From positions 59,024,001-59,088,000 of the forward strand of contig CM060731.1 of assembly GCA_030704615.1 (NCBI GenBank): a stretch of DNA of 64,000 bases, in the 5' to 3' direction. Below, one piece after another: positions 1-40,609 of this stretch. The notes beneath the pieces are model-generated. The model saw only the letters and a program-made list of their open reading frames with translations. It had not been told where the DNA came from and did not search any database. Origin of the DNA: Takakia lepidozioides (lineage: Eukaryota > Plantae > Bryophyta). How positions within the stretch are numbered: the first letter of the stretch is position 1; each line of letters starts with the position of its first letter. Both the position numbers and the translations under genes were made by a program.

Positions 1-55
1 TGGTGAAAGATCCACCACAACAACAACAGGTCCTGAAGGACCAGCACCAGCAAGG

Positions 56-1685
56 GTGCCAGCACCTATCAGTGGGCAAAAGGTAGGGCCACAGATGGCG
101 TTACAACCAACACGGGCAAAACCACATTTTCCAATATATTCAGGAAAAGGGGATCCCAATGTACACATTAGCCAATTTGAGCACATGTGTATAGTGAACA
201 ATGAGAATGACGATGATGCCAAGATGAGATTGTTTCCTTGTTCACTTATCAAAAAAGCAAGTGAATGGTATGCAAGATTCCCTGATAATCATTTTCTAAC
301 CTGGAATGGCTTGAATACAACATTCCGAAATAGGTTCAGGACAAGTAAAACTGAGGATGAAGTGTATGGAAGTTTACAACAGTTAAAGCAAAAGAAGCAT
401 GAAACTGTTGAGGAGTATATGGAAAAGATGGAATTGATGATGAAAAAGCTGGCTGCAGTACCAGCACCAGGTTTACAGAAGACTTGGTTTGTGAGTGGAC
501 TAAGACTAGAGTTGCAAAAGAAAGTGGATATGTTACCCCATAATACAGTGGAGGAGGCATTTGAAACTGCAAACAAAATTGAGCAATTGGGAATGCTCAG
601 GAGAGAGAAAAGGGATGATGAGGACTCTGAGGATGAGTCAGATGAAGAAGAAGAGCAAGAACTAAAAAGAAAGAGTAAGAGAAAGGAGAAGTTGAAGAGG
701 GATAACTATGAAAAAAAAATTGGAAGAAATCTTGAAGAAGTATGCCACAGAGGCTGCAACACATTGGAGGAAGGGTGTATGGTGTGCAAAGTGCCAGAAT
801 GAAGGCCATACCACCACAGAATGCCACATGAAGGAGAAACACTGTACTATCTGTAAAATGGATAACCATTCTACTGAGAATTGTTACTACAACAGAAGGA
901 CAGCTGCAAGAGAACCTAGGCAAGTAAGGGTGCATCAGGTGCAGCCCCAGCCAAGAAGAAACAATGATCAGGACCACTATGGTAGGTCTGGTGGTTATAA
1001 CAATGGCATGGAAGGGAGAGGTAATTCAAGGGGGAATTACCAAGGAAATTCCAGAGGCAACTATCAGGGTAATCCAAGGGGGAATTACCAGCCCGGGAAT
1101 CAGGATTATAGAAATAATCCAAGAACAGACCAAGGGCGAGGACCCAATGGTGAAGAGCTATGTCACTATTGTAATCAGCCAGGACATCGCAAGGCAGCCT
1201 GTTCATTCTGGATAAGACACCAGAATGAGATGAGAGCTCCTGTGAATGAGGGCCCAGTGGTGGCAGCTCACATGGTTAGGCCATGTGTTGTACCAGAAGT
1301 AAGTACAATGATAATAACAAGAAGCAAAGCCAAACTAATACCTCCAGTAGTTGAGGAAGATGATGATAATGAAGGTGGCAGTGATATGCGTGAAGATGAT
1401 GAGGCTTGGAGAGATGAGAAGGAACTGCACAAGGAAGTGGCAGATACCATAAGGGAAATGCAGAAGAGTATTGATATTCCTATGGCAGATTCCTCTGATT
1501 CTGATGGAGAAGAAGAAGTGAGTGAGGATGAAAGGAAGAAAGAAGATGCAGACATGCAGAGTAATGAAGGGACTTTGGCTGAAGTAATATGCCAGACCAA
1601 AGCAGAGATTACCATTGGACAGCTATTGGCTGTGGCACCTTATTGTAGACACAAGTTGTATCAAGCAATCAATCGAATTGGCTAG
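56..1685 (+). pseudogene. gag: gag (capsid-like region plus CCHC zinc knuckles), frameshifted
   Basis: DPNVHISQF...MRLFPCSL...W; knuckles CAKCQNEGHTTTEC, CTICKMDNHSTENC, CHYCNQPGHRKAAC. Frameshift in the A-run near 711-719. Confidence 0.9.
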
Positions 1686-1715
1686 GAGACAGGAAACACA
1701 GACCTGAACAGCAAT

Positions 1716-2204
1716 GTGACCAGTTATAATGTGAAGCCGGAAGGGCGAGAAACAGTCATGGACTTTGATGATTCTATGCCAGTAATCCAATTGAGAATTG
1801 GAAGCACAGAACTAACTGATGTACTTATAGATGGAGGCTCAGGAGTAAATATCATGACAGACCAATTAAGAAAGAAGCTTGGTCTAAGTAACATGAAACC
1901 AGCCCCATTTACAGTAACAATGGCAGATCAAAGAAGTTTACAACCATTGGGATTAATAAGAGGAGTTAAGATACAGATACAGATACAGAAGATGATCTTT
2001 ATGATCACAGTAACTGTGTTGAAGATGGATGAAGTCATGGAGGCTTACTCCTTATTATTGGGACGTCCGTGGCTGAAACAGGCCAGGGTATTCCATGACT
2101 GGAATTCTCAGTTACTAACCGTGCATAATGGGATACACGAGATACAAATTATCACAAGGAAATCTAGTAGATTACCTGCTATGAGAAGACCTCGAGGGGT
2201 CTGA
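1716..2204 (+). pseudogene. retrotransposon aspartic protease
   Basis: VLIDGGSGVNIM catalytic motif and LLLGRPWL; flanked by in-frame stops. Confidence 0.88.
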
Positions 2205-2288
2205 GAGTATGACTGGAGAGGAGGACTGGATGAGGAGTAGGAAGCTACCCTGTTTGTTGCACACCCAGAGTGGGAGCAGGTTGCAGAG

Positions 2289-3595
2289 ATGCGGCTGGAA
2301 GGCCTAAGTTGTTTAAGGGGTATCTGCTGTGGTGTAGTGTCAGCAACACCAATTGAAGAGGAAACCAACAGTTACCCATCACATTTCTATGAAGAAAAAG
2401 AAGGAGAAATGGAAATCCTAGAGGAACCAGCCACTGTGAGTTTACAGGATGAAGTGGTGACTGGTTGGACAATCACAGCTGATGAGCAAGTGAGGGAAGT
2501 GAATGTGGGAACTAAAGAGGAACCGAGGATGGTGAAGGTAGAAGCTGATTTGGAGCCGGAATTCTTCGAAGAAGCTAAGAGTTTGTTCATCAAATACAGA
2601 GATGTATTTGCTTGGAGCTATGAGGATCTAAAAGGGATACCACCTGAAATCTGTCAGCATAAGATTGAACTGGAACCAAGGTCAGTACCAATCAAGCAGG
2701 CAAGGTACAGAATGAATCCCAACTACGCACAGAAGGTTGGAGAAGAGATCAAGAAGTTGGCTGAGGCTAAGTTTATATACCCAATAGAGTATACAACTTG
2801 GTTGTCACCCATTGTGATAGTTCCCAAGCAGAATGGTAAACTAAGAGTTTGTGTGAACTACAAGAAGCTGAATGCTTGTACGAAGAAAGATCCTTTCCCT
2901 TTGCCATTCATAGAAGCAGTATTGGACACTGTGGCAGGCCATGAGATGTACTCATTCATGGATGGCTTCAGTGGTTATAACCAAGTGCAAGTGGCAGAAG
3001 AAGACCAAGGAAAGACAGCTTTCATCACAGACTGGGGTGCTTATGCATACAAAGTCATGCCCTTTGGACTTTGTAATGCACCAGCAACCTTTCAGAGAGT
3101 GATAAGTGAATCTTTTCATGAGTATCTGGATGATTTCATGCAGGCATTCTTGGATGATTTCAGTGTGTACAGCTCTAAGAATGAGCACTTGCATAAATTG
3201 GAGTTATGTCTGGCCAGATGCAGGATGAGAGGTCTGGGCCTGAATCCAGAGAAGTGTACTTTCTGTGTGAACTCACGGGTGCTTCTGGGACACATTGTGT
3301 GTAAGAGGGGACTTCTTGTGGATCCCAGGAAAACAGAGGCCATTAAAGCCTCTCCACCACCAGTGAATGTTAAGAGTCTAAGGAGATTCCTTGGACAAAC
3401 CAGTTATTACAGAAGATTTGTCAGACGGTATGCACAGATAGCAACACAATTGAGCAAACTTCTGAAGAAAGATGCAGTGTTTGCATGGACACCTGAATGT
3501 CAACAGGTTTTTGAGGAACTTACATTGTCAGTAACAACTACACCTGTGCTGATTAATCCTCATTGGCAGGAAATATTTCATGTTCACTGTGATGC
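2289..3595 (+). pseudogene. reverse transcriptase, ending at the first residues of RNase H
   Basis: SPIVIVPK, DGFSGYNQ, MPFGLCNAPATFQR, AFLDDF, FLGQTSYYRRF; ends at FHVHCDA. Confidence 0.93.
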
Positions 3596-4430
3596 TGGGA
3601 CTAGACTTTGATGGACCGATTAACCCACCAGCCAAGAATACACGGAACAGGTATATAATTACAGCCACTGATTATACTACGAAGTGGGTGGAAGCTAAAG
3701 CTTTGAGGGACAACACAACCAAGTCCACAGCAACGTTCCTGTATGAGAACATACTTACACGATTTGGCTGTCCCTTGGAATTTATCAGTGATCAGGGAAG
3801 TCACTTCATTAATGAGACCATTGAATTATTGACTAAAGAGTTCATGATTGTGCATAGGAAGAGTACAACATATTACCCACAGGGTAATGGGCAACCAGAG
3901 GCTACCAACAAAATACTATGTACTATCTTGGCTAAGATAGTCAATGCAAACAGAATGGATTGGGATACAAAGCTGCTGACAGCTTTGTGGTCATACAAGA
4001 CTTCATATAAAGTCACCACTAAGTATACACCATTCCAATTAGTTTATGGTATGGAAGTACTTCCAGTGGAATTCCTGCTACCTACCATGAGAACGGAATG
4101 GGGAAAGAGAATGGAATTGCAAGATTCCATTAAGGTCAAGAAACATGAATTATACCATGTGGAAGAAGTACGTGCTGATGCAGCTGATAATATGACCAGA
4201 ATTCAGATGAAGAGAAAGGAACAGTTTGATGAAAGCAAGTTAAAGACTTTTAAGACGGGAGATTTGGTTCTATGGTTGCAGAAGAAAGGAAAGATTAAGC
4301 TTCTAAGCTTAAATCACCATGGAAAGGACCTTATGTCATACAAAAGATGTATGATAACAACACCGCCATGTTACAAACCATTAACAAAGAGATGTTGGGA
4401 AGAGTCAATGCCAATAAGTTGAAGGGGTAC
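3596..4430 (+). pseudogene. integrase core (rve), lacking the N-terminal HHCC finger
   Basis: GLDFDGP, TDYTTKWVEA, SDQGSHF, YYPQGNGQPEATNK; GPY-like C-terminus in a shifted frame. Confidence 0.9.
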
Positions 4431-4559
4431 AGTGGTATCCATGACAAACCATTGCAGCATGATTTGCATGTTGAAACGCAAAAGCAGCCACGGGCTGCAC
4501 CAGTGATACCAATGGAGTATGGAGCACTTGTCGCTAAGCCGAGCATATATGACCAGAGC

Positions 4560-4860
4560 GACACAGCCTATCACAGCCCATCACGACGTGACACAACCTA
4601 TCACAGCCCAGCAAGGCGCGACACAGCCTATCACAGCCCAGCATGGCGCGACACAGCCTATCATAGCCCATCACAACGTGACACAGCCTATCACAGCCTA
4701 GCGAGGCGCGACACAGCATATCACAGCCCAGCACGGAGCAATACAGCCTATCACAACCTACCACAGCGTGTCACAGCCTATCACAGCTTACCACAGTGCA
4801 ACACAGCGTATCACGGCGTATCACAGTATGACACAGCCTGTCACAGCTCAACACAGCCTA
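4560..4860 (+). repeat. minisatellite, 30-bp unit built from 10-bp ACACAGCCTA/TCACAGCCCA subunits (about 10 units)
   Basis: Visible periodicity acacagccta-tcacagccca-nnnnnnnnng; translates as DTAYHSPARR repeats. Confidence 0.9.
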
Positions 4861-5096
4861 CTAGGGTTACACAATCCATGGAATCAGTGAAAGGTGGACA
4901 TAGGATAACTTCAGGGAAATGGCCGGCGAAAGAAAGGACGGAAGCCAGTTTAGAAAGGGACACGTGGAAGTCAGGGCGCAACACACAGCTGAGAAGGAAG
5001 TGCAAGAACAGATGTCATCAAGAAAGAGGACAAGAATGGCTGTCAAAATACCTAATTAGCACGTCAATTTGGATGAATGGCGGGCCCATTAATGAA

Positions 5097-7123
5097 TACG
5101 GCACATGGCCTAACCATGTGAGCTGCCACCACTGGCCCCTCATTCACAGGAGCTCTCATCTTTTTCTGGTGTCTGATCCAGAATGGGCAGGCTGCCTTGC
5201 GATGGCCTGCCTGATTACAATAGTAACACAGTTCTTCCCCATTAGGTCCTCGCCCTTGGTCTGTTCTGGAATTGTTTCTATAATCCTGATTCCTTGGCTG
5301 GTAATTCCCTCTTGGATTACCCTGATAGTTGCCTCTGAAATTTCCTTGGTAATTCCCTCTTGAATTACCTCTCCTTTCCATGCCATTGTTATAACCACCA
5401 GGCCTACCATAGTGGTCCTGATCACAGTTTCTTCTTGGCTGGGGCTGCACTTGATGCACCCTTACTTGCCTAGGTTCTCTAGCTGTTGTCATTCTGTTGT
5501 AGTAACAATTCTCAGTAGAATGGTTATCCATTTTACAGATAGTACAGTGTTTCTCCTTCATGTGGCATTCAATGGTGGTATGGCCTTCATTCTGGCACTT
5601 TGCACACCATACACCCTTCCTCCAATGTGTTGCAGCCTCTGTGGCATACTTCTTCAAGATTTCTTCTAATCTTTTCTCATAGTTATCCCTCTTCAACTTC
5701 TCCTTCCTCTTACTCTTCCTTTTCAGCTCTTACTCTTCTTCCTCATCTGACTCATCCTCAGAGTCCTCACCATCCATTTTCTTTCTCCTGAGCATTCCCA
5801 ATTGCTCAATTCTATTCGCTGTTTCAAATGCCTCCTCCACTGTATTATGGGGTAACATATCCACTTTCTTTTGCAACTCTGGTCTTAGTCCACTCACAAA
5901 CCAAGTCTTCTGTAAACCTGGTGCTGGTACAGCAGCCAGCTTTTTCATCATCAATTCCATCTTTTCCATATACTCCTCAACAGTTTCATGCTTCTTTTGC
6001 TTTAACTGTTGTAAACTTCCATACACTTCATCCTCAGTTTTACTTGTCCTGAACCTATTTGGGAATGTTGTATTCAAGCCATTCCACGTTAGGAAATGAT
6101 TATCAGGGAATCTTGCATACCATTCGCTTGCTTTCTTTATAAGTGAACAAGGAAACAGTCTCATCTTGGCATCATCGCCATTCTCATTGTTCACTATACA
6201 CATGTGCTCAAATTGGCTAATGTGTACATCAGGATCCCCTTTTCTTGAATATATTGGAAAAGGTGGTTTTGCCCGTGTTGGTTGTAACGCCATCTTTGGC
6301 CCTACCTTCTGCCCACTGACAGATGCTGGCCCCCTTGCTGGTGCTAGTCCTTGAGGACTTGTTGTAGTTGTGGTGGATCTTCCACCCAGTGGTGGCCCCT
6401 GAGCACTCCCTACTACCGGCCCCACGATATTCACAGTATTCCCAGCTCCAGTTGCACTACTTCCCACACTCCCTGTCCCCCCAGAGCCAGATCCAGGCAG
6501 CCCGCCTGATCCCCCTGAGCCGACACCTTCGTTGGCCTGTGGTCCAAGTGCTCCACTTGATCCAGGTCCAACGGGTTGGGATGTCCTGGTTGTAGTCTCA
6601 ACCTCAGCTGTTGGGTCTACTTCTTCATACTCTTCCTCTTCCAATTTCTTCCCTCTGTTTTCATCCTCCAAGTTCTGCCCTTGGGTTTCTTCTTCACTCA
6701 TGTAACTAAACTGCAATGGTGTTGGAGAGTCTGAACTCTCCGTTGGCTCTGCCACATCCTCTCCTCCTTCTTCACCTTCCGTTTCAGAAACGAGAGTTCA
6801 TGCTTTTGGTGTTCCATGCCAACTCTTATCAAAGATTTCTGTCAAATCTTTATCCAGGGATGTACCTCAGATCTTTCACCTCGTGGTTGATCTTCTTCCC
6901 GTACCAATTCCCTTAATCTCTCTTGCAAAGAAAAAGAAGGAGTGGCATCCAACTCTAGTTCTTCCGGTATGGGTGATGTACTCTCTGATCTTAATGGTGT
7001 GAGAGGTCCAGATGATTCCCCTATGTCTATTCCTCTCTCCCAAAGATATGGATAATTAGCTTTCAGATAACTTTCTCTTTTTGCTGAATATCTCTGGAGT
7101 CTAGCTTCTCTTTCATCACTCAT
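5097..7123 (-). pseudogene. gag: gag of A' with long low-complexity N-terminus
   Basis: ORFs 5730-6755 and 5064-5696 are near-identical to copy A gag; 6842-7123 is probably a disrupted N-terminal extension. Confidence 0.85.
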
Positions 7124-8643: not shown

Positions 8644-10782
8644 GTACGGTGGTCTATCGAGGCTTTATCACATAAATCCTGAAACTTCCCCAAGAACTCT
8701 CTCCCTTGGTCCGTGAGTACCTCAGCTAGAGCACCGAATCGGCTAAGTACACGATCCAAGAATGCATACGCAGCCCCCTCACTAGCCTTGTCAGGCAACG
8801 GAACCAACTCAAATCCATTTGGAGAAGTGCTCCACCATCACCAACACATATCTGTGGCCCTGCAAAGTCAAGACTTCACCTATAGCCCAATCCCATTATG
8901 GGTAAAAGATGCAACTGTGGTGTAGGGACGTTGAATGAAGCATGCACCTTGTCACACACCATGCATCTAGCCACGAACTGTTGCACCTCTGTGTGCATAC
9001 CATGCCACCAATACTGCCCCTACAGTAAACTATAAGCGCGTCGCATTTTAAAATGCCCCAAATCCTCATGGGCATGTTGCACTAACCGTGTACGCTGTGT
9101 TGGGTGAGGCACAATCCTCACCCGACCATCTTCCCACACTTGAAGCAGGTATATCCCCTTCCACTTGAACCTCTTGGCTTGTTGTAGGATCCGATCCCTC
9201 TCATTGGCAGTCACACTAGCTGTCGTGTCTCCAGTGCGGAGGTAGTCCAATACAATTGAATCCTCATGTATATCTCTGGCACCACCTGACTCATCACTAA
9301 CCTCAGGGTCCTCAGACACTCCGCCTACAGTCATCCCTGTTGTAGGTCCAACCTAACCTCCCGATGCCAAGATACACAAAAATGCAGATGCATGCCATTC
9401 CGGCACCATCTCCTCGTCCGTCTCACCATGCCACCGAGCTCTAGTGTCATCTTACTGGCTCGTGCATGGATTGCAACTCAATCCATCCGCATCCCAATTG
9501 ACCAAACATGGTCAATGCACCACCTGAGAGTCGTACTCTTGGAGAATGAGTGCCCACCGTGCAAGCTTCCTTGTAAGCTTGTCTGACTCCATCAACCACT
9601 TGAGTGGCTAGTGATCCGTAACAAGGGTGAAGAGATTGTCGTATAGATAGCATCTGAAGTGTGTCATGGCCCACACTGCAGCTAAGCACTCCCCCTCATA
9701 TGAGCTATACTTAGACTCTATAGCATTGTTCGAGCGACTAGCATAAGCCACTACGAACTCTCTTCCCTCATCATCCACCTGTGTGAGCACCGCTCCAAGC
9801 CCCAGCATGCTCCAATCCGTATGCAACTGAAAGGGGCGCCCCTGGATAGGTCGTCTCAAGATGGACGCCGAGGTCAACCTCACTTTGAGATCCTGAAAAG
9901 CTCGCTCTTGCTCATCTTCCCACTACCACTCCTGGTCTACCTTGGTCAGCTTGGTTAGAGCCTTTGCAATAGCACTAAATCCCTTGATAAACCGTCGATA
10001 ATAGTTCGCCAACCCCATGAAAGCTCGAACTCGGCTCACGTCTGTGGGGCGTGGAATCCATGCAATGGCCTCTACTTTAGTCTGCTGTACCCCCAATCCT
10101 CCAGGATATATCATGTGGCCCAGATACTCAATCTGGTTGTGGAAGAACTTGCACTTCCCTAGATGTAACTTCAATCCGTGCGCTCTCAAGCGCTCAAATA
10201 CCACCTGAAGGTGTCTCTTATGCTCCTCCACCGTATCTCACTAAAGATGATGATATCATCTATGTAGCACCGGCAAAGTCCACCCCTACTAGAATCATGT
10301 CCATGATTCTCTGGAACTCTGCAAGAGCGTTTTTAAGCCCGAATGGTAAGAACCGCCCCTGATATAGGCAATCATTCTCGTGCTCATTGATTCCCCAGAA
10401 TGTCGTCTTCTGCTTGTCCGCCTCCTTGATCGACAATTGGTGATATCTGGACCGCTTGAGTTCAAAGTGCTAAAGACCTTAGCATGCCCAATGACATCAA
10501 AGATCTCTTCTGGTGTGGGCATGACATACTTATCGGACTTGGTCTGACGATTTACAGGCCGGTAATCACCGCACATACGTCTCTCCATCCAATTGTCATA
10601 GACATCATTCTTGGCTCGCATCACTATGGCTAAAGCATACTCTTATCCAGAGAGATCCACCAAACCAGCCTCCCAGAGATCTTGAGTCTTCATCTGAATC
10701 AAAGACCTCTCCATGTCACTGTATCTATAGGGTCTCCGAAAGATTGGCGTGTCAGTGGCCAATACAATAAGAATTTCCTGAC
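8644..10782 (-). pseudogene. pol (RT-RNase H-integrase) of host gypsy element H, degenerate
   Basis: RRMCGDYRPVN, YLGHMI, FMGLANYYRRFI, LHTDWS...VVAYASRS...ECLAAVWA...LVTDH, HAHEDLGHF, LTDQGREF; many stops and frameshifts. Confidence 0.9.
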
Positions 10783-11453
10783 TGTTAAGTGAAGCCTTGT
10801 GCTAAAATCTCATTTTAGATGACTTTTAGAACCAATTAATGGGAAGGCATGATTTATAGATAATATTAACACCAATTGATATGGGCTTTGAACTTGAGAC
10901 CTACTCGCGAATATGAGGTGTGAAAATAATTTAAAAACATTCCAAAAACTTTTGTTGTGTCAGGGATTGATCCTAAAATATCCAAGGAGTGAATTTGGAG
11001 GAAAAACAAATAAATTATTGGAATCCTGGAAATTAAAAGGTGCCAGAACAGAAAATTAAAGTGACCAATGAGAAGGAAGGAACCATTGGTATCTAAGAAA
11101 TAAAGCGTTGTCCCTTGAAAGAAAAGGATGAAAAAGAAGAAGGAGAGGAGGACAAAGAGGCGAAAGAGAGAGATGACTGAAGAATATGGATCAGAATAGG
11201 AATCAAGGAAGGAGACTAGATGAGGGGTGGTAGTATGAGAGACTATGATCTGAAACTATGAAGAAGGCTTAATTAGATAAAGGAAATAAATAGTAGCATA
11301 GGAAACAGGAAAACGATGGAGGAAGAACTATAAGATCTGTGATCATTTTCAATATTATAATAAAGTCAGTTTTCCATTCCCTTCGTTTTGTGAAATAAAT
11401 AAATAATTATGTACCATATACAATTCAGAAATGGAGGGAAAAATGGACAAACA
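10783..11453 (+). repeat. 5' LTR of B
   Basis: Direct repeat of 18278-18937, differing by two small indels and scattered substitutions; TG...CA ends. Confidence 0.96.
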
Positions 11454-11454
11454 T

Positions 11455-11472
11455 TGGTGCGTCTGCCGGGAG
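11455..11472 (+). promoter_or_regulatory. primer-binding site complementary to the 3' end of tRNA-Gly(TCC)
   Basis: TGGTGCGTCTGCCGGGAG, 1 nt after the LTR; complements ...CTCCCGGCAGACGCA-CCA, the plant tRNA-Gly(TCC) end as recalled. Confidence 0.85.
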
Positions 11473-11769
11473 CAGACTTTGTCTACTCTCCTAAGTTGAG
11501 TTTAAAGCTTTCTCTGATCTAGCTGAAAAGGATCAGGGTTATATTGCTCAAGTGAAAATAATAATAATAATAATGGAAACTCAAAATATATCTATTTTAT
11601 TTATTAAATGTGATATGTATTCTGGAGCTGACTATAAATGCTCTAAAGGATTTAAAAGATACTATAGTAGTTTCGGATTTCACAATGACAAGGAATCACT
11701 TAAACAACACAATTTTGGTGTCCAAAGATTTAAATTATGAAGCTGTTGCAAGAAGTCCCACATTCATAG

Positions 11770-12187
11770 AAGTTATTTGTTGATGGGGCTGCTCGTAATA
11801 ATCCAAGCCATGCAGCAATTGGTGTGGTTTTAATTGATCCGTTCGGTCTAATATATAAGCAATTAGCTGAGTATATTGGTTTCCCAATTTTCTAATAATG
11901 TGGCAGAATATATAGCTCTCATAAGGGGTTTGGAGGAAACGAAGCTTCATGGCATTTCTAGTGTTGAAATTAATACAGACTCTGAATTGGTCTACTGTCA
12001 AATCACTAGAGAGTATAATATTTATGATAGGAAACTTTGCCAATTGAACGAAGAAGTCCAGAAGTTGTTAAACTTATTTGACGCTGTCACAATAAAATGT
12101 ATTCCAAGGGAGGAAAACCACCTAGCAGACTCATTAGCAAACATAGTTTTGAATGCTAGAGTGGGGTTAGAAAGAGTGTTACATTGA
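11770..12187 (+). pseudogene. archaeal-type RNase HI (aRH) domain upstream of gag
   Basis: KLFVDGAARNNPSHAAIGVVL (11770-11880), frameshift, then NNVAEYIALIRGL...INTDSELV...IPREENHLADSLAN. D-E-D-D catalytic set present, with the aRH-type PREEN motif. Confidence 0.9.
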
Positions 12188-12457
12188 ATTCAGACTGCTG
12201 AATTATTGAGCGTCATGCCAAATGCAATCTCTTTAAACCAATTCCATAGTACTACATTTTATTATGACTTATGTCAGATTTAGCTAACACTTCTGGAAAT
12301 TCTAAAATTGATTTCCTTAATGAAGCTCGTTCAAGACATTTGACGCCAAGACAACTACGTGTCGAAATAAGAAGTAGATCTAGGCAGCTTGCGTTAGCAC
12401 GAGAAGAAGCCGAAAGGGAACGAAGAAGGATCCTAAGAACATCTGGACAACCAGAAG

Positions 12458-13786
12458 ATGAGGAACAACCTCAAAAATCTCTATCTCCTAGAATCCTTTT
12501 GCCTGCCTATTAATTTGAATATTAATACCTCAAATGTTAATGTCCCGGCCAACCCAAATCCTAGTGTAATTAATATTGTACCACCTATCATGGCTGCCCA
12601 ACAAGCCGCGGCAGGTTTGCCTATCGTCATTCCAGTTAATACAGCTGCACCACCTAATATAGTAAGGGATATACCGTTATTTTATGGTTTAGTTACCGAG
12701 GATGCTGACCAACACATTCAAATTTTTTTACATGTGTGTGCAGTCAGCCTTGTAGTAGAGGATGCCCATAAAATGATGGTTTTTCCTTATACTTTACAAG
12801 GGCAGGCTGACGCATGGTATTATAGACAAGCTGCAGCCACATTCGCCACTTGGCCAGATTTACGCGTTGCGTTCCAATTGGAATTTAATGCTGTAAAAAA
12901 CCCCCAAAGTGCAATGATGGAATTATCTCAGGTTAGACAAGGTATTGATGAGACAGTCGAAAATTACGCTAATAGGTTAAAAGACCTAGCAAGAAAATAA
13001 ACAACATTGAATTTAGATCAGATGGTTTTGAAATTATTTTTTATTCAAGGGCTGAAATATGAACATCAAATTCATGTAAGGTCAGCTAATCCAGCGACTT
13101 TGACTGATGCCATTGCCAGAGCAATATTATATGATCGTGCCATAAGAAGCACAAGGGTAAATCCCATGGTTAATGCAATGCAACCTTCTATAGTACCTAT
13201 GGGGTCCACCAATATGGTAGGATTTAATGGAGGACAGTTCAATGGTGTTAATAATCAACAATCCAAGCATATTTGAACCCATCCCTTAAATGTTCTGCCA
13301 CCCTCTAGACCTTTTGATTCTCTTAGTCAAGCAATTACTCTACCTCCAAAGCACGAGGAAACACATTGGGAGGGCTTAAGGGACTGGATGAATACCGTCA
13401 CCGAGAATTTAAAATCTGTAAATCAGAATATGGTTTTTATGCTTAAAACGCAAAATTTAATGGGAGGTAGGCCTGTGCAATCAAATGAGAAAAATCAGCT
13501 CATTTGTACCACATGCAATGGGAGAAATCATACTGCGCAAATTTGTAAAGCCCATGTCATATGTGGCTATTGCCATAGACCTCACCATTATGAGTCAGAA
13601 TGCTTTCGTAAACAAAAGGATGAAGCGACAAGAAATAGAGCTCAACCTGGTCAACATCCTAACCCGCATAGTCCTGTTCAAATCGTAAGAAAGAATATTT
13701 TAACGCGGGACAAGGGTGCTTCTTCTTTCAGGTGTGAATTTAATTATGGTCGAAAAATCTTCATCTGTACCGAAGGACGGGATTAG
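12458..13786 (+). pseudogene. gag: gag of B with two CCHC knuckles
   Basis: EDADQHIQIF...FPYTLQGQADAWY, QGIDETVENY, FIQGL; CTTCNGRNHTAQIC and CGYCHRPHHYESEC; internal stops. Confidence 0.88.
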
Positions 13787-14834
13787 GTCTAAAGTAAGAA
13801 ATAACACACAGGAAGTGTGGGAAGTAAGTACTCGGTCTAAAGTCAAAAACCTCGTTAAACAACCTGAGCCTGTCCCTGATGATGAAGATGAAACTAATGA
13901 AGAAATTAATGACTTTGGTATACCCAAGCACTCTCCTAATGAACAAGATCATAAAAATAATCTGGTCAAGGAAAAGAATATTGTAGAAGAACACCTGCCT
14001 AAAGTCAATCGACCAAAGACTGTCACTTTTGCTGACCAGAATCAAGAGTTCAAAAGGAAAGAAGAAGAACTTCCGATAAAGAAATATGCAAAACCTTATA
14101 GTGTATTAGAAGACTTGGCAGAAAATAAGGCCAATATTATGTTATCCCAGTTTATAACTATTTGTCCAGCTATTCAAAAAGAATTAATATTGGGTCTAGT
14201 AAGAAAACGTAAACCAGTAAGGGTTATAAGAGCGTTGGATTCAGCCATTATAGATAGAGATTGCCCTAAGGTAAATTGTATTGTGAATGAACTGGAAGTA
14301 TCTGGAGCCTTGGTTGATGCAGGGTCGGGGATAAATGTGATGACTTTAGTAGCCATGAAAGAACTAGGGTTGAAATTGCATGGACCGTCTCCTTACTCAT
14401 TGAGAATGGCTAATTACACTTCCGTGAAACCAGAAGGTATCATAATGAATGTAGAAATATTGGTGGCTGGTCAAATCACTAAAACCCACTTTTATGTGTT
14501 AAGAGTAGATAATCCTCGTTGCGGATATTTACTTCTTTTAGGAAGGCCTTGGCTTCGAGAGACTTACGTTGTAGTACATATTCCTAGAGGCATTCTAGCC
14601 ATAGGCAAGGGTCCAAAAAGAGTGGCAGTGGATGCTTATCCCCAATTAACTACTGAATCAAACCAGTTAAGTGAGCTGGAATATTTTAAAAGTGAATCAG
14701 ATGAATATGATAGTTCCGACGAAGAATTGATGTATAATGAAACAAAAATGGTTTTACCAGAAGAGTTCAAGGGAGTTCTGGATGTGTTGTTTTCAGAAGA
14801 ACTTGAGATTTTAGATGGAGTCGATGGTTTTTGA
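13716..14834 (+). pseudogene. aspartic protease region of B
   Basis: ALVDAGSGINVM and LLLGRPWL. Confidence 0.87.
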
Positions 14835-14976
14835 GAGTACTAAGGAAGAAATCTCTGACAAGCTGGAAGTACAAACTAAAAGTTTGAAACCAGATGTTAT
14901 TGAGCTAAATATAGGTACTGAAGGAGAGAGTAAATCAATTAGACTAAATAAAGAACTTGCAATTAATGAAGTCAAT

Positions 14977-15350
14977 AGAGTTATCCGTAAAGTGAGCCTA
15001 AGTTTGGTACCTTGTTTGGACCCGAGTTACGGGTTTCATCCCGAATTTGAGTTAATCCGTAAAGTGCAGAAAACTGAGCACGAAGTCAGAAAAGAGGGCA
15101 CCAAATTATAAACTGGGGATGAGGGCAACAGCTGCTCAAACCGAGCTCGTGAGCTCTGACCGCCTCCGCCTCAACGACTAACAAAACTCGGCACCAAACT
15201 CCTGCAACCCCCATTTTCCTAGTCCTGACAGTTTGGTCCCGTGTTTTTTTCTAGTCGTACCGCTTGATCTTGAGTTTCGAGTTTCATACCGAGTTTTGGC
15301 CAAACTCAGGGTTCTCATGCCCGAGTTTGGGACCCTTTACGGATAACTCT
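14977..15350. mobile_element. MITE inserted in pol of B
   Basis: 16-bp TIR AGAGTTATCCGTAAAG / CTTTACGGATAACTCT; AAT on both sides (TA if the TIR is read 1 nt shorter). Removal restores ELAINEVN-EFTALCKEFQDIFAWSY. Confidence 0.88.
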
Positions 15351-16150
15351 AATGAGTTCACAGCTTTGTGTAAGGAATTTCAAGACATTTTTGCTTGGTC
15401 ATATACGGACTTAAAAGGAATACCACCAAGCATTGTGACACATAAAATTTCTTTAATGCCAGGAGCCAAGCCTATTCGGCAACGCCAAAGGAGGGTTAAT
15501 CATGTGCGCTTAGAAGCCTTACAAAAAGAGGTGATAAAATTAAGAGATAATGGTTTGATTTTTGAAGTAGATAATTCAGAATGGGTCTTGTCAGTGGTAG
15601 TTGTCCCGAAGAAAACATGGGGTTTAAGGGTTTGCATGGATTATAGATTTAAATAAGGTAACCAAAAAGGATTATTATCCATTACCTTTTATTGATCAAA
15701 TTTTAGACTCAGTGGCCGGGAAAGAATGTTATAGTTTTATGGACTGCTTTTCCGGGTACAACCAAATAGCTATTGAGGAGAGTGATAAATTAAAAACAAC
15801 ATTTTCCACTATTTGGGGTACTTTTGCTTACCACGTCATGCCCTTTGGTTTGTGTAATGCTCTTTGGACATACCAACGGATGATGAATAATGCTTTTCAA
15901 GAATATCTTAATGTTTTTGTAAGAATTTTTGTTGACGATTTATGTTGTTGCACTACTAAAAAGGAACACCTTAAAGCTTTAAGAAAATGCTTTGAAAAAT
16001 GTAGACTGTATAGCATAGCCCTAATCCTATGAAGTGTTCTTTTGGGGCTAGATATGGAGTTTTGCTAAGACACGTGATTAGCCAAAAAGGACTTCAGGTA
16101 GATCCAGCAAAAATTGAGTTAATAATGAAAATGCCACCACCAACTAAGCA
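15351..16150 (+). pseudogene. reverse transcriptase of B, C-terminally deleted
   Basis: FAWSYTDLKGIPP, DCFSGYNQI, MPFGLCNA, IFVDDL; stops at MKMPPPT. Confidence 0.9.
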
Positions 16151-16159
16151 ATTTTTTTA

Positions 16160-17379
16160 TCTACACTTAAGTACCCTGAAGGATTTACAAATCTTGAGCG
16201 ACAAAAACTATGCTTACAATCTGTCAAATTCAGCATTATTGCTGGAAAATTGTATCGAGAAGGTGTGGATGGGATGTAGAGGCGTTGTGTTATTTCCGAA
16301 GAAATTCCAGTAATTTTAGAAGCCTGTCACGATAGTTGTTGCGGAGGTCACTTTGAAGGACTAACTACAACCCAAAAGATTTTAAGAGCGGGGTATTGGT
16401 GGCCAAGTATGTTTAAAGACTCATTTGAGTATGTTCAAAAATGCGATACTTGTCAGCGGTTCACCGGTTCTTTTATTAAGAGTCAAACTAGACCGCTTGT
16501 GCCAATCATAGCTTTGCTTCCATTTGAAAAATGGGGCATAGATTTTATGGGTCCATTTCACCCTACCTCAAGTTCTAGAAAAAATTATATTCTGGTAGCC
16601 ACAGACTATTTTACAAAGTGGGTTGAGGCGATAGCTGTTAAGAAAGATGATGCCAAAACCACGGTTAATTTTTTATTTAATAATATCATCACCAAGTTTG
16701 GAGCCCCACATGAATTGGTCTCGGACAGAGGTTCACATTTTCTTAATGATGTGATAAGCAATCTTACAGAGACCTTTAGTATAAAACATAGGAAAAGTAC
16801 GCCTTATCACCCACAAGCTAATGGGTTAGCTGAGAGCATTAATAAAACGTTGGCTCAAATTTTACGAAAAAACTGTAGATACCAATAAAAGAGACTGGGA
16901 CTTAAATTATGAGGGGCAGTTTGGGCATATAACACTGCTATCAAAACTGTCACGGGTTTCACACCATATGCATTGGTCTATGGGACAGAGTGTGTGCTTC
17001 CTATAGAACATGAAATCCAGACCATTAGGACCGCCATGGCTCATGACTTACCACTAGATGACTCAGTGAAAGAACGGTTAATTATGTTATCTCAGTTGGA
17101 TGAATGGCGGACAACCACTCAACTGAATATAGAGACCCAACAAAAACAATGGAAAATCAGATTTGATAAGGGTCTCAAACCGGTATCGTGGGAACCAGGG
17201 GACTAATGATAATCGAACCCAGACAAAAGCTGTTTCCTAGTAAATTTTCACATAAATGGTTTGGTCCTTTCATAGTAGAGGAGGCTTTTAAAAACGGTTC
17301 TTTACAGTTAAAGGATAGTGACGGTATATTGTTTCTAACTAAGACGGCTGGAGAACAAGTGAAAAAATATTATGTGTAA
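16160..17379 (+). pseudogene. integrase of B
   Basis: CHDSCCGGHF, CDTCQR, WGIDFMGP, TDYFTKWVEA, SDRGSHF, YHPQANGLAES, KWFGPF. Confidence 0.92.
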
Positions 17380-18277
17380 TGTTTAACCATCCGGACTGTT
17401 CATAATCATCTTTCCAAGGTTTTTAGACTCCAATTTCTTAGAAGCTTCACTTAACATCATGATTTCAAGCGAAGGGGGTCTAATGATTTTTATTTTTTTT
17501 GGAGCAAATAGCTCATACCTTATTGCATTTATTTCAAGCAATCCAAGCATTCTTGCATTTACACTTAACGCACCACTTGGATAACTTTCCACGGGCTTAA
17601 AATAATTGGTTCTAACCCAATAACCTTATATTATGGTATTTATATTTATAAAGTACTACACAAGGATGATGCAACATACACAAGAGTCCATAATGGACCG
17701 TAGTATATCATGGGAAAAAGATTTGGGTGCATTTGTTTGATAATATGAGTATGAGAGTTTCAACCTTGCTCTCATCTGTTTTGGAAGAATAAACCCAAGC
17801 ATGCATCCTGGCATAAGCCGGTGGACAAGGGACCGGAGGGGATAACCTTTTCCGGATTATATCACTTCACTGCACTAAACCACTTTTAAAAGTTAAAGAG
17901 GGATGGTCACACACTTTGCTGTCATAACTTATAAAATATAAACGTGTAAAAATGTATTTTCTGCACAGCACAAGAATAATGCACAAAAGATAATGAGCAG
18001 AATATTTAAAAGACTTAAAAGTTCTTGTAAGTTAATGCAAATTACTGTCAAGGTTGGACAGTAAATCTTGGGTTCCAACAAAGTTCTTCTTACAGCGAGA
18101 ATGATCTCCTTGACTTTATAATGAGTGAATCATTTTATTCATATTTCCATAGTTATTTTACAAAGAAATTATTTGGGTATATATGATAATATTTTCATGT
18201 TATTATCTCTCTCACACTAACCAGGGATTCTGGGTTCGTCGTTAAGGGACTAACTGTATCGGTATGATCGCCAAAAA

Positions 18278-18937
18278 TGTTAAGTGAATTTACAGCCTTG
18301 TGCTAAAATCTCATTTTAGATGACTTTTAGAACCAATTAATGGGAAGGCATACACCAATTGATATGGGCTTTGAACTTGAGACCTACTCGCGAATATGAG
18401 GTGTGAAAGTAATTTAAAAACATTCCAAAAACTTTTGTTGTGTCAGGGATTGATCCTAAAATCTCCAAGGAGTGAATTTGGAGGAAAAACAAATAAATTA
18501 TTGGAGTCCTGGAAATTAAAAGGTGCCAGAATAGAAAATTAAAGTGACCAATGAGAAGGAAGGAACCATTGGTATCTAAGAAATAAAGCGTTGTCCCTTA
18601 AAAGAAAAGGATGAAAAAGAAGAAGGAGAGGAGGACAAGGAGGCGAAAGAGAGAGATGACTGAAGAATATGGATCAGAATAGGAATCAAGGAAGGAGACT
18701 AGATGAGGGGTGGTAGCATGAGAGACTATGATCTGAAACTATGAAGAAGGCTTAATTACATAAATGAAATAAATAGTAGCATATGAAACAGGAAAGCGAT
18801 GGAGGAAGAACTATAATAGCTGTGATCATTTTCAATATTATAATAAAGTCAGTTTTCCATTCCCTTCGTTTTGTGAAATAAATAAATAATTATGTAGCAT
18901 ATACAATTCAGAAATGGAGGGAAAATATGGACAAACA
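18278..18937 (+). repeat. 3' LTR of B
   Basis: Direct repeat of 10783-11453. Confidence 0.96.
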
Positions 18938-18942
18938 CTGAC

Positions 18943-24030: not shown

Positions 24031-24639
24031 ATGGGCACTACTCTCCTACACCCTCCGAGGAACTTGCCCCACCTTCTTCCTCATCCCCCTCATCCCCCTC
24101 ATCCTCCGAGCTCTGTGATGCATCAGTTCCACTATGCCTCTCAAAAATCCCGTCCTCTTGGGGGACTGTCCACCTCACCTCCTGGGAATCTTCTGCATCT
24201 TCTCCCCCACTTTCCTCAGCTGAATCCAAGACAAATCTACGAGCTTGACGGGCTCTAATAGCTGCTGCCTCCTCCCTCATCTTCATTTTCTTGAGGCTTG
24301 CCTCGTCTAAAATCTGCTGTACACGACTAGGTTCAGAACACCTCCTAATGGACACCGAAGCAAGCCGGGCAACATAAGTAGGAAGGATGTAGTCCCTTTC
24401 TGGACTAGGCATGAAATCCCCCCTGGCAAAAAAATGCACGTTCCTCCTGCCCATGAACTGCGGTGTAGACGTCCCTCCTACAGTACTTGACATCCTACAG
24501 TAAGAACAAATCCACTTGAAGAATGTCAATACCAGCAGAAGCAAAAATGTTCTTTCAATGAAATAAAAGAGCGAGGGGAGGTGCCTCACAAAACCAGGAG
24601 GCAACTTACAATGCGACCACTCACTCGTAAACCATTTTC

Positions 24640-25076
24640 GGCACCATTTTCCTAGGTTGGGCCCGAAAATGGCTAAGTCCCAAAACTGACTGAGCGCGGA
24701 ACTAGAAAAATGGCGCCGAATTTCCGGTTGCGGTTCCAGCCACCCTAGGGACTTAGCCATTTTCGGGGCCCTGAACTGGAAAAATGGCGCCATTTTTCCA
24801 TTTCGGGGCTGAAAATGGCTAAGGCCCAGATCTGACTGGGCCCGGAACTGGAAAAATGGCGCCGAATTTCCGATTTTGCTGCCAGCCACCCTAGGGACTT
24901 ACCCATTTTCGGGGGCTTAAACTGGAAAAATGGCGCAATTTTTCCATTTCGGGGCCAAAAATGGCTAAGTCCCAGATCTGACTGGGCCCGGAACTGGAAA
25001 AATGGCGCCGAATTTCCGATTTTGGTGCCAGTCAGATCTGGGACTTAGCCATTTTCGGCCCCGAACCGGAAAAATG

Positions 25077-25150
<74 letters not shown>

Positions 25151-26174
25151 TAAATTTAAAAATTTATCGGCGCCATTTTTCCAGTTCGGGGCCGAAAATG
25201 GCTAAGTCCCAGATCTGACTGGGCCCAGAACCGAAAAAATGGCGCCGAATTTCCGATTTTGCTGCCAGCCACCCTAAGGACTTAGCCATTTTCGGCCCCG
25301 AACTGGAAAAATGGCGCCATTTTTCCAGTTCGGGGCCAAAAATGGCTAAGTCCTTAGGATGGCTGGGCGCGGAACTGGAAAAATGGCGCCGAATTTCCGG
25401 TTGCGGTTCTAGCCACCCTAGGGACTTACCCATTTTCAGGGGCTTGAACTGGAAAAATGGCGCCATTTTTCCATTTCGGGGCCAAAAATGGCTAAGTCCC
25501 AGATCTGACTAGGCCCGGAACTGGAAAAATGGCGCCGAATTTCCGATTTTGGTGCCAGTCAGATCTGGGACTTAGCCATTTTCGGCTCCGAACTGAAAAT
25601 GGCGGTTTTTTTTTTTTTATTTTTATTTAATTTTTCTCTGTTCGGGGCCGAAAATGGCTAAGTCCCAGATCTGACTGGGCCCGGAATTGGAAAAATGGCG
25701 CCGAATTTCCGATTTTGCTGCCAGCCACCCTAGGGACAGCCATTTTCGGCCCCGAACTGGAAAAATGACGCCATTTTTCCAGTTCGGGGCCGAAAATGGC
25801 TAAGTCCCAGATCTGATAGGGCGCGGAACTGGAAAAATGGCGCCGAATTTCCGATTTTGCTGCCAGCCACCCTAAGGACTTAGCCATTTTCGGCCCCGAA
25901 CTGGAAAAATGGCGCCATTTTTCCAGTTCGGGGCCGAAAATGGCTAAGTCCCAGATCTGACTGGGCCCAGAACTGGAAAAATGGCGCCGAATTTCCGATT
26001 TTGGTGCCAGTCAGATCTGGGACTTAGCCGTTTTCGGCCCCGAACTGGAAAAATAGCGTTTTGTTTTTTTTTGTTTTTTTTTTCCGGCGCCATTTTTCCA
26101 GTTCGGGGCCAAAAATGGCTAAGTCCCAGATCTGATTGGCACCAAAATCGGAAATTCGGCGCCATTTTTCCAGT
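24640..26174. repeat. foldback-type array I: nested inverted repeats around GGAAAAATGGCGCC, with poly-T spacers
   Basis: Repeated arms AATGGCTAAGTCCCAGATCTGACTGG / CCAGTCAGATCTGGGACTTAGCCATT; T-rich spacers near 25080, 25605 and 26060. Confidence 0.9.
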
Positions 26175-27050
26175 CATGCAGGTAACCCGAAGAGCGGATG
26201 GATGGAAATCCGGCGCCGGATTTCCATCCTCCAGGTAAGTCAGCGCTGCAAATTTCTGTCACGCAGGTTACTTGTGAGCGGATGGATGGAAATCCGGCGC
26301 ATGATTTCCATCCGCCAGGTACAAAATTTCCGTCATGCAGGTAATTCGGAGCGCGGATGGATGGAAATCCGGCGACGGATTTCCATCCTCCAGGTAAGTC
26401 GGCGCGCAAAATTTCCGTCATGCAGGTAATTCGAAGAGCGGATGGATGGAAATCCGGCGCCGGATTTCCATCCGCCAGCTAAGTCGGCGCGCAAAATTTC
26501 CGTCGTGCAGGTAATTCGAAGAGCGGATGGATGGAAATCCGGCGCCAGATTTCCATCCGCAAGGTAGGTCGGCGCGCAAAATTTTCATCATGCAGGTAAT
26601 TCGGAGCGCGGATGGATGGGAATCCGGCGCCGGATTTCTATCCTGCAGGTAAGTCGGCGCTGCAAATTTCCGTCATGCAGGTAATTTGAAGAGCGGATGG
26701 ATGGAAATCCGGCGCCGAATTTCGATCCTGTAGGTAACTCGGAGCGCCGAATTTCCGTCAGGCAGGTAATTCGGAGGGCGGATGGATGGAAATCCGGCGC
26801 CGAATTTTCATCCTGCAGATAACTCGGAGCGCCGAATTTCCGTCATGCAGGTAATTCAGAGAGCGGATGGATTAAAATCCGGTGCCGAATTTCCATCCTG
26901 CAAGTAATTTGGAGCCCGGATGGACGGAAATCCGGCGCCGAATTTCCATCCAGCAGGTACTTTGGATCGCTACTGGATGGAAATTCGGCGCCGAATTTCC
27001 ATCCGCCAAGTAAGTCGAAGCGCCGAATTACCATCCTGCAGGTAATTCTG
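26175..27050 (+). repeat. array II: 85-bp tandem repeat, each unit with a 30-bp palindrome
   Basis: Unit starts at 26334, 26419, 26504, 26589, 26674; core GGATGGAAATCCGGCGCCGGATTTCCATCC. Confidence 0.92.
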
Positions 27051-27149
27051 AGCGTGGCCGCTAGGTTTTTGGTCTAAAAAGACACTAAACCTCTAGTTTT
27101 TTGGCTGAAGTCCACTTTTAGACACGTTTTTCAGGGAATTCTCGACTGC

Positions 27150-28320
27150 TAGGGGGGAATCCGAACGGCCCCGGACGGAAATTCGGCGCCGTTTTTCCAT
27201 CCTGGGAGGTTTTTATGTCGGCCTATTTTCAGCCAGACCCCCTGACACGACTTCCTTTGGGGGGGCCCGGATGGAAATTCGGCGCCGAATTTCCATTCGG
27301 GGGATGCTCTCTGTCGGACAGGTGCCGGCCTCTCCGCCCGAAGCGACTTCATCCGGGCGTCCTCTGTTGGAAATTCGGTGCCGAATTTCCGTCCGGGGGT
27401 TGTAATTTGACGACCAGGTGCTGCCCTCTCCCCCCGAGCCGGTTGTATTCGAACAACCCCGGATGGAAATTCGGCGCCGTTTTTCCATCCGGAGAGGTTT
27501 TTATGTCGGCCACTTTTCGGCCTGACCCCCCGACAAGACTTCCTTTGTGGGGGCCCGGATGGAAATTCGGCGCTGAATTTCCATCCGGGAGATGCTCTCT
27601 GTCGGACAGGTGCCGGCCTCTCCGCCCGAGGCGACTTCATCCGGGCGTCCCCTGTTGGATATTCGGTGCCGAATTTCCGTCCGGGGGTTGTAATGTGACG
27701 GCCAGGTGCCGACCTCTCCCCCCGATCCGACTGCATCCGAACGGCCCCGAATGGAAATTCGGCGTTGTTTTTCCATTCGGGGAGGTTTTTATGTCGGCCA
27801 GTTTTCGGCCTGACCCCTCGACAGGACTTCCTTTGGGGGGGCCCGGACGGAAATTCGGCGCCGAATTTCCATCCGGGGGATGCTCTCTGTCGGACAGGTG
27901 TCGGCCTCTCCGCCCGAGGCGACTTCATCCGGGCGTCCCCTGTTGGATATTCGGTGCCAATTTTCCGTCCGGGGGTTGTAATGTGACGGCCAGGTGCCGG
28001 CCTCTCCCCCCGGGCCGACTGCATCTGAACGGCCCCGGATGGAAATTTGGCGCCGTTTTTCCATCCGGGGAGGTTTTTATGTCGGCCAGTTTTTGGCCTA
28101 ACCCCCCAACAGGACTTCCTTTGGGGGGCCCGGATGGAAATTCGGGTCTGAATTTCCATCCGGGGGATGTTCTCTGTCGGACAGGTGCCGGCCTCTCTGC
28201 CCGAGGCGACTTCAACCGGGCGGCCCCTGTTGGATCTTCGGTGCCGAATTTCCATCCGGGGGTAGTAATGTGACGGCCCGGTGCCGGCTTCTCCCCTTCA
28301 GCCGACATCATCCGGACGGC
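27150..28320 (+). repeat. array III: 288-bp GC-rich tandem repeat, about 4 copies
   Basis: Repeated 91-aa ORFs offset by 288 bp (27213, 27501, 27789); three GGAAATTCGGCGCCGAATTTCC-like sites per unit. Confidence 0.92.
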
Positions 28321-28419
28321 CCCCCACTTTCTGACTGCATACCGTTGGCAGTTATTGCGCAAAGACCAGGGGCCGCATTCCGGAGACAAGGTTCATTAAC
28401 ACTCTGACTGTGGATTTTT

Positions 28420-33432: not shown

Positions 33433-33932
33433 NNNNNNNNNNNNNNNNNNNNNNNNNNNNNNNNNNNNNNNNNNNNNNNNNNNNNNNNNNNNNNNNNNNN
33501 NNNNNNNNNNNNNNNNNNNNNNNNNNNNNNNNNNNNNNNNNNNNNNNNNNNNNNNNNNNNNNNNNNNNNNNNNNNNNNNNNNNNNNNNNNNNNNNNNNNN
33601 NNNNNNNNNNNNNNNNNNNNNNNNNNNNNNNNNNNNNNNNNNNNNNNNNNNNNNNNNNNNNNNNNNNNNNNNNNNNNNNNNNNNNNNNNNNNNNNNNNNN
33701 NNNNNNNNNNNNNNNNNNNNNNNNNNNNNNNNNNNNNNNNNNNNNNNNNNNNNNNNNNNNNNNNNNNNNNNNNNNNNNNNNNNNNNNNNNNNNNNNNNNN
33801 NNNNNNNNNNNNNNNNNNNNNNNNNNNNNNNNNNNNNNNNNNNNNNNNNNNNNNNNNNNNNNNNNNNNNNNNNNNNNNNNNNNNNNNNNNNNNNNNNNNN
33901 NNNNNNNNNNNNNNNNNNNNNNNNNNNNNNNN
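33433..33932. other. assembly gap (500 N)
   Basis: Run of n. Confidence 1.
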
Positions 33933-39461: not shown

Positions 39462-39472
39462 TGGTGGAGATG
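39462..39472 (+). promoter_or_regulatory. primer-binding site complementary to tRNA-Ala
   Basis: TGGTGGAGATG directly after the LTR; complements the ...CATCTCCA-CCA end of tRNA-Ala as recalled. Confidence 0.75.
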
Positions 39473-40513: not shown

Positions 40514-40609
40514 TTCTCCATGGACGATTTTTGTTGCTCTACTGAATGCTCACAAGAGCTAAATCTAAACTTTTAGAGAATCAAACCAGTAAGATGGGAG
40601 AGGTGAAGG

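What the first reader, a model, noticed from the sequence alone, without database searches (positions are those of the whole stretch)
11685..12187. Archaeal-type RNase H placed between PBS and gag in gypsy element B
Seen: a full aRH domain with D-E-D-D residues and the PREEN signature, with one internal frameshift, lying inside the LTRs but 5' of gag as a separate ORF. Established: Tat/Ogre/Retand elements carry aRH within pol, next to RT, RH or IN. Inference: a pre-gag stand-alone aRH would be a further architecture or an independent capture, with the enzyme expressed separately from the polyprotein.
Basis: partly seen in the sequence, partly recalled or inferred. Interest (0 to 1): 0.78.

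Follow-up and report, generated by a model that had tools for sequence, protein, structure and literature searches.

The report
Dead pre-capsid RNase H Tat retrotransposon
This is a broken copy of a plant jumping gene that carries an archaeal-type RNA-degrading enzyme as a separate small gene in front of its capsid gene, a layout already described in mosses and a spikemoss, where the free enzyme likely replaces the element's own RNase H.

Summary
An archaeal-type RNase HI with D-E-D-D and PREEN lies between the PBS and gag of a gypsy element with paired LTRs and a 5-bp TSD. Two corrections: the in-frame start is 11737, not 11685, and there is an in-frame stop as well as the frameshift.

The domain belongs to the family and is not a nested insert. 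Public contigs tile across PBS, aRH and gag, lack the frameshift, and keep the aRH stop codon and the spacer before gag.

It is Tat structure #4 (aRH.GAG.PR.RT.RH.INT; 'pre-capsid'), reported from four mosses and Selaginella tamariscina (PMC10508981, PMC13468544). RT and integrase trees place the element beside fern Tat-like elements; one of these has a degenerate native RNase H. That is where moss Tat B sits in the published tree, but no Tat B reference could be included.

This copy is dead: it has many frameshifts, a MITE, and lacks about 225 codons covering the RT thumb and native RH. Differences among copies look neutral. One loose end: no polypurine tract precedes the 3' LTR, and a tRNA-end-like sequence stands there instead.

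The parts
10778..10782 (.). 5-bp target-site duplication (left); the element is inserted into the RT region of an older minus-strand gypsy element
   Evidence: Same 5-mer at 18938-18942; flank RT/RH hits; contigs have loose ends behind 10782 that run on like the right flank
10783..11453 (+). 5' LTR (TG...CA), 671 nt
   Evidence: 15 substitutions in 653 aligned columns against the 3' LTR, K2P 0.023, plus three indels
11455..11472 (+). Primer-binding site beginning TGG (tRNA-Gly by recall; identity not tested)
   Evidence: Sequence directly
11473..11736 (+). AT-rich leader (29% GC) with five upstream ATGs
11737..12187 (+). Archaeal-type RNase HI ORF (about 150 codons); broken here by an in-frame stop at 11767-11769 and a frameshift near 11890; D 11782, E 11906, D 11978, D 12128, PREEN 12104; stop at 12185-12187
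12188..12270 (+). 83-nt spacer between the aRH stop and the probable gag ATG; no gaps in the listed contigs; no unusual fold
   Evidence: z -0.29 for 12150-12300
12271..13786 (+). gag (Retrotrans_gag, zinc-knuckle-like end), in pieces in this copy
   Evidence: PF03732 1.3e-9; tblastn with relatives; length differences in contigs
13704..14975 (+). pol 5' part with aspartic protease
   Evidence: Asp_protease_2 0.0087, below Pfam cutoff; blastp 1.8e-32 to P0006
14978..15349 (.). Nested MITE-like insertion with terminal inverted repeats and a TA duplication; very high contig depth; skipped by family contigs
   Evidence: (joints 14973-15351 and 14975-15354; depth about 10,000 against about 200)
15352..16148 (+). 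Reverse transcriptase, frameshifted, ending before the thumb
   Evidence: RVT_1 7.7e-17
16145..16154 (+). Deletion junction: about 225 codons (RT thumb, connection, native RNase H) are missing relative to three relatives
   Evidence: P0012 1366-1590, P0031 579-803 and P0039 1300-1524 have no match
16154..17379 (+). Integrase (H2C2 zinc finger, rve core, C-terminal part), with stops and frameshifts
   Evidence: PF17921 4.4e-15, PF00665 1.6e-14
18265..18277 (+). Position of the polypurine tract, which is absent; the sequence ends in CCA plus four A, reading as an inverted PBS-like site on the minus strand (tRNA-Arg by recall only)
   Evidence: At most 8 purines in any 13-nt window tested within the last 25 nt; no run of 10 or more purines after 17712
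18278..18937 (+). 3' LTR (TG...CA)
18938..18942 (.). 5-bp target-site duplication (right)

Best explanation
This is a dead copy of a Ty3/gypsy retrotransposon that carries an archaeal-type RNase H in its own reading frame between the primer site and gag, likely a member of the moss Tat B lineage (published structure #4), in whose active ancestor the free enzyme would have degraded the RNA template during reverse transcription in place of a likely degenerate native RNase H.

Shown here: the domain and its D-E-D-D residues; its position inside the LTRs; the separate frame and stop shared by the family contigs; the RT and INT position; the breaks in this copy.

Inferred: Tat B membership (by topology, without reference sequences); degeneration of the native RH (from the clade, since the region is deleted here); expression of aRH as a free protein of about 17 kDa from the first long ORF of the genomic RNA, and its non-covalent entry into the particle. 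Also inferred is that Gag and Gag-Pol are made by re-initiation or from a spliced or internally started RNA, because the gag ATG is the 17th ATG after the PBS, which makes plain scanning unlikely.
For: - Archaeal-type RNase HI hits and four catalytic residues.
- LTRs, TSD and PBS.
- No inverted repeats of 8 nt or more flank the aRH, only three 7-nt direct matches, and its GC (37%) matches the other genes (36-40%).
- Contigs of three runs of one sample cover 30, 30 and 29 of 30 bins of 11430-12620 with no joint. All depth at the frameshift lacks it in all three. The aRH stop and spacer frame are unchanged in the listed contigs, including one from a second study.
- Depth over aRH is similar to gag and pol (not a copy number).
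- RT tree: window plus P0271 and two Adiantum proteins, SH-aLRT 96. P0278 has a degenerate native RH.
- INT tree: window plus P0004 and three Adiantum proteins 98/92. That group is sister (93/96) to a clade of intact-RH relatives that holds a Marchantia element and P0002, whose cluster includes a Sphagnum protein. This fits the published order ((D,C),B),Z2 as read from the text layout of Fig. S1.
- The paper reports native RH degraded in all aRH-bearing Tat structures.
Against: - No Tat B or Tat C sequence was available, so placement is by proxy. Labelling the Adiantum proteins as Tat D is my inference; no aRH was found in them.
- The native RH is deleted in this copy and could not be checked for degeneration.
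- Of 21 listed differences between the window and the contigs within aRH, 6 are synonymous, 14 non-synonymous and 1 makes a stop. About 27% synonymous is expected by chance, so there is no sign of purifying selection among present copies.
- That the in-frame stop is private to this copy is inferred, not shown: one unlisted difference is shared by the contigs overlapping 11755-11775.
- One contig of run X2 joins the aRH at 11801 to other DNA.
- No close aRH relative was found: best identity 49% among 150 listed.
- The aRH tree does not group it with angiosperm Tat aRH and is unresolved.
- The host is unknown from the window: no host gene was found among 85 ORFs scanned.
Confidence: 0.85

Rival explanations
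1. Independent capture: a lineage without aRH (Z1, Z2, Phygy-like) picked up a prokaryotic or host RNase HI into its 5' region separately from Tat B/C and kept its own active RH.
For: The top INT hits by score have an intact native RH. The aRH is closer by identity to stand-alone RNase HI proteins (45-49%) than to angiosperm Tat aRH (33-40%).
Against: In both trees the element leaves the intact-RH groups and joins the Adiantum clade with support. The paper also found aRH phylogeny uninformative. Structure #4 is already known at this place in the tree.
Confidence: 0.07
2. The family has lost its native RH altogether and relies on the upstream aRH alone, or is a non-autonomous derivative that spreads with the deletion.
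For: RT is joined directly to the pre-integrase region in this copy.
Against: The deletion also removes the RT thumb, which an autonomous element needs (established knowledge). Contigs lack several of this copy's frameshifts in gag, RT and INT, which points to an intact progenitor. Whether contigs share the deletion was not visible in the cut tables.
Confidence: 0.05
3. The aRH is a passenger or nested insert in this copy, or in a recently rearranged subfamily, with no role in replication.
For: It is broken twice here, and differences among copies look neutral.
Against: No flanking repeats. It is present without a skipping joint in the family contigs, which lack the frameshift. All four catalytic residues are kept. 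The same layout recurs in five other species.
Confidence: 0.03

Closest known systems
Tat structure #4 / 'pre-capsid' elements: Tat B of mosses (Cplu_2, Cpur_2, Psch_2, Scan_2) and Tat C Stam_3 of Selaginella tamariscina (PMC10508981, whole text and supplement read; PMC13468544, passages read)
   Same: [quoted passage not shown]
   Different: LTR 671 nt against 256-356 nt in the four moss representatives (776 nt in Stam_3). This copy lacks the native RH and RT thumb. PBS type and the absence of a PPT are not discussed in the text I read.
TatI/TatII, TatIII, Ogre, Retand (Neumann et al. 2019, PMC6317226, passages read; Ustyantsev et al. 2015, PMC4408406, passages read)
   Same: Carry an archaeal-type RNase H in addition to the gypsy RH.
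   Different: Their aRH lies between PR and RT, after INT, or between RH and INT. They fall in a different branch of my RT and INT trees.
Archaeal-type RNase HI (PDB 4e19, 2ehg/3aly, 3hst, 3u3g)
   Same: Sequence-level homology and catalytic residues.
   Different: These are cellular or environmental enzymes; here the domain is a retrotransposon ORF.

Membership tests
Ty3/gypsy LTR retrotransposon | Paired TG...CA LTRs, TSD, PBS, order gag-PR-RT-(RH)-INT | tested here: met
   (RH deleted in this copy)
Ty3/gypsy LTR retrotransposon | Polypurine tract just before the 3' LTR (usual, not strictly defining) | tested here: not met
   not checked in other copies
Tat, structure #4 (Tat B/C) | Archaeal-type RNase H with D-E-D-D | tested here: met
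Tat, structure #4 (Tat B/C) | [quoted passage not shown] | tested here: met
   Stop 12185-12187 and the 83-nt spacer frame unchanged in the listed contigs
Tat, structure #4 (Tat B/C) | RT/INT phylogeny within the non-seed-plant Tat branch (A-D, Z2) | tested here: met
   By proxy only: RT 96 SH-aLRT (90 of 151 rows), INT 98/92 (61 of 129 rows) with Adiantum elements
Tat B specifically | Monophyly with Cplu_2, Cpur_2, Psch_2, Scan_2 | not testable with these tools
   The reference sequences are on GitHub, not in the supplement PDF
Tat, structure #4 (Tat B/C) | Native gypsy RH present but catalytically degenerate | tested here: inconclusive
   Region deleted in this copy; degenerate in the sister protein P0278
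Tat B specifically | Host is a moss | tested here: inconclusive
   No host gene among 85 ORFs scanned; earlier unchecked AI notes on this genome say 'likely a moss'
Functional aRH ORF in the family | Intact frame under purifying selection in sister copies | tested here: inconclusive
   Frameshift absent from contigs and stop probably absent; 6 synonymous of 21 differences, as expected without selection

The most novel reading that the evidence does not exclude
This lineage has given up the polypurine tract and primes its second DNA strand with a second host tRNA at an inverted site before the 3' LTR. Its RNase H then no longer needs to cut a PPT precisely, so it could leave the polyprotein and work as a free, generic archaeal-type enzyme. 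That would explain how structure #4 can function, a question the describing paper leaves open.
Probability: 0.1. Interest if true: 0.72.

Novelty: new member of a known kind. Interest (0 to 1): 0.2.

Why it matters
As it stands, little: it adds one more decayed, apparently low-copy family to a rare but published architecture. The open question attached to that architecture is how a separately encoded RNase H reaches the reverse-transcription complex (raised in PMC10508981). This locus narrows it slightly by showing that the aRH stop and the 83-nt spacer before gag are shared by the copies seen, so aRH is not fused to Gag. It would matter more if the host is not a moss or Selaginella, or if the missing polypurine tract proves to be a conserved feature linked to the free enzyme.

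Tried and rejected
- No whole genome is held for this window, so full-length sister copies could not be read.
- Homologue search with the 3' aRH piece: 5 candidates, none at E 1e-10 or better; uninformative.
- Representative search: 6454 proteins at E 0.001 or better, best 150 listed, none above 49% identity. Of 40 of these scanned, all 40 hit RVT_3 and 1 had integrase and RT-RH domains.
- Metagenome scan: 5 loci, 0 of 5 with any match to the element's gag, PR, RT or INT pieces; rejected as unrelated cellular RNase HI genes.
- No second aRH elsewhere in the window.
- aRH tree of 56 rows and 89 columns: no supported group holds the window sequence.
- Sequencing runs: no RNA holder listed. Run X6 (RNA by guess) covered only the flank and the MITE. 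Neither says anything about expression.
- Paper search with four short primer-site motifs returned only unrelated papers among the 25 listed. A search on PPT, plus-strand priming, tRNA-Arg and moss listed 4 papers; none deals, by its listing, with a tRNA site in place of the PPT.
- PMC3864347 is not held.
- Folding the spacer showed no unusual structure. The promoter scan was on 11 bases with a bacterial model and is meaningless here.
- Rejected: 11685 as the start codon; a nested insert with its own TSD; an aRH-Gag fusion.
- No structure or complex prediction was run, since the fold is clear from PDB sequence matches.

Full report
Observation. The element runs from 10783 to 18937. It has TG...CA LTRs that differ at 15 of 653 aligned columns (K2P 0.023), a 5-bp TSD, and a TGG-starting PBS at 11455. 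With plant substitution rates recalled at about 1e-8 per site per year, that is roughly one million years. It sits in the RT region of an older gypsy element on the other strand. Between the PBS and gag lies an RNase H. Its 3' piece matches Pfam RVT_3 at 9.3e-17, and all six PDB matches are RNase H/HI entries or Rv2228c, which I recall as the archaeal-type clade. The 5' piece matches three of the same entries weakly. The catalytic codons are D 11782, E 11906, D 11978 and D 12128, with PREEN at 12104.

Is it part of the family? No genome was available, so I laid public contigs on the locus. Three runs of one sample cover 30, 30 and 29 of 30 bins of 11430-12620 with no joint that skips the aRH, and several variant contigs overlap at some places. 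In all three runs, all depth at the frameshift lacks it. One unlisted difference is common to the contigs that overlap 11755-11775, the stretch that holds the in-frame stop, so the stop is probably private too; this is inferred. The aRH stop at 12185-12187 and the frame of the 83-nt spacer are unchanged in the listed contigs, including one from a second study (X5). The contigs also lack the frameshift near 12507, which puts the start of gag at ATG 12271. The aRH is therefore a separate ORF of about 150 codons and is not fused to Gag. No inverted repeats and only three 7-nt direct matches flank it, and its GC content matches the other genes. Against a simple picture: one X2 contig joins 11801 to other DNA. 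The 21 listed differences inside aRH are 6 synonymous, 14 non-synonymous and 1 stop, about what chance gives (27% synonymous). The copies seen look like decaying copies and give no evidence of selection. The contigs may include the sample the window came from, and their depth is not a copy number.

The rest of the element. The order is aRH, gag, protease, RT, integrase. A 372-nt TA-flanked MITE-like insert lies before RT and is skipped by family contigs. About 225 codons covering the RT thumb, connection and native RNase H are missing relative to three relatives. Because the thumb is gone too, I read this as damage to this copy. Whether other copies share it was not visible in the cut tables. 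There is no polypurine tract before the 3' LTR. The last 13 nt end in CCA and four A, which on the other strand reads like a primer site; by recall it matches the end of a plant tRNA-Arg, and the 5' PBS a tRNA-Gly. I could not test either identity or its conservation. Two earlier unchecked AI notes describe plant gypsy clades with an inverted tRNA site in place of the PPT. They are leads only.

Phylogeny. The best INT hits by score (55-61% identity) have an intact native RH, which at first suggested a lineage without aRH. The trees say otherwise. In the RT tree (90 of 151 rows; unnamed rows under 55% identity thinned to every third; 126 columns), the window groups at SH-aLRT 96 with P0271 and two Adiantum proteins. 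One of these, P0278, has a degenerate native RH. In the INT tree (61 of 129 rows), it groups at 98/92 with P0004 and three Adiantum proteins. That group is sister (93/96) to a clade holding a Marchantia element and P0002, whose cluster includes a Sphagnum protein. This fits the order ((fern D, Selaginella C), moss B), Z2 as read from the text layout of Fig. S1 of PMC10508981, and the window takes the place of B. No real Tat B sequence was in the trees, and calling the Adiantum proteins Tat D is my inference; no aRH was found in them. The aRH itself has no close relative (best 49%) and its tree is unresolved, as the paper also found.

What is known. [quoted passage not shown] They find the native RH degraded in all aRH-bearing structures and ask how an aRH outside pol can work. 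PMC13468544 names it 'pre-capsid' and also credits Wang et al. 2021, which I did not see (passages). A further search found only the 2023 paper. The sequence data of the 2023 paper are on GitHub and were not seen; they would settle membership.

How it most likely works. In the active ancestor, the genomic RNA from the 5' LTR would be primed by a tRNA at the PBS. RT would copy it, and RNase H activity would come from the free aRH protein, with the native RH likely reduced to a tether. The aRH is the first long ORF after the leader but has five ATGs before it, and the gag ATG is the 17th ATG after the PBS. Gag and Gag-Pol therefore more likely come from re-initiation or from a spliced or internally started RNA than from plain scanning; the spacer shows no special fold. 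Entry of aRH into the particle would be non-covalent. All of this expression and packaging account is inferred; no RNA data bear on it. This copy itself cannot make aRH, RT or integrase.

Verdict. The feature is real and family-wide, the architecture is known, and this copy is dead. New member of a known kind, interest 0.2. The boldest reading not excluded links the free RNase H to loss of the PPT and priming by a second tRNA (probability 0.1).

Noticed in passing
window 18265-18277: No polypurine tract before the 3' LTR; a tRNA-3'-end-like sequence with CCA plus four A stands there (an inverted PBS-like site). Similar cases appear in earlier unchecked notes e1-10618115 and e1-10597906.
   Followed up: partly
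window 16145-16154: Deletion of about 225 codons (RT thumb, connection, native RNase H) in this copy; not checked in other copies.
   Followed up: partly
window 14978-15349: TA-flanked MITE-like element with terminal inverted repeats; contig depth about 50 times that of the retrotransposon; also matched by contigs of run X6.
   Followed up: partly
window 38979-52192 (dUTPase in the ORF 42819-43694): A second gypsy element with LTRs of about 485 nt has a dUTPase domain (Pfam 3.9e-10) between protease and RT, and PPR-like repeats at 45.5-46.3 kb (PPR by eye only) in a long stretch between RH and integrase.
   Followed up: no
window 2-6386: A gypsy-like element whose gag region is duplicated as 1.29-kb inverted repeats at 94% identity; it also lacks most of the RH and the start of the integrase.
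   Followed up: no
window 8646-10782 and from 18938 onward: An older minus-strand gypsy element (RT, RH, integrase remnants) interrupted by this insertion; very high contig depth at 10600-10782.
   Followed up: partly
window 24621-28323: Satellite-like arrays with periods of about 144-146, 85 and 96/288 nt, partly in inverted arrangement.
   Followed up: no
window 33433-33932: A 500-N assembly gap.
   Followed up: no
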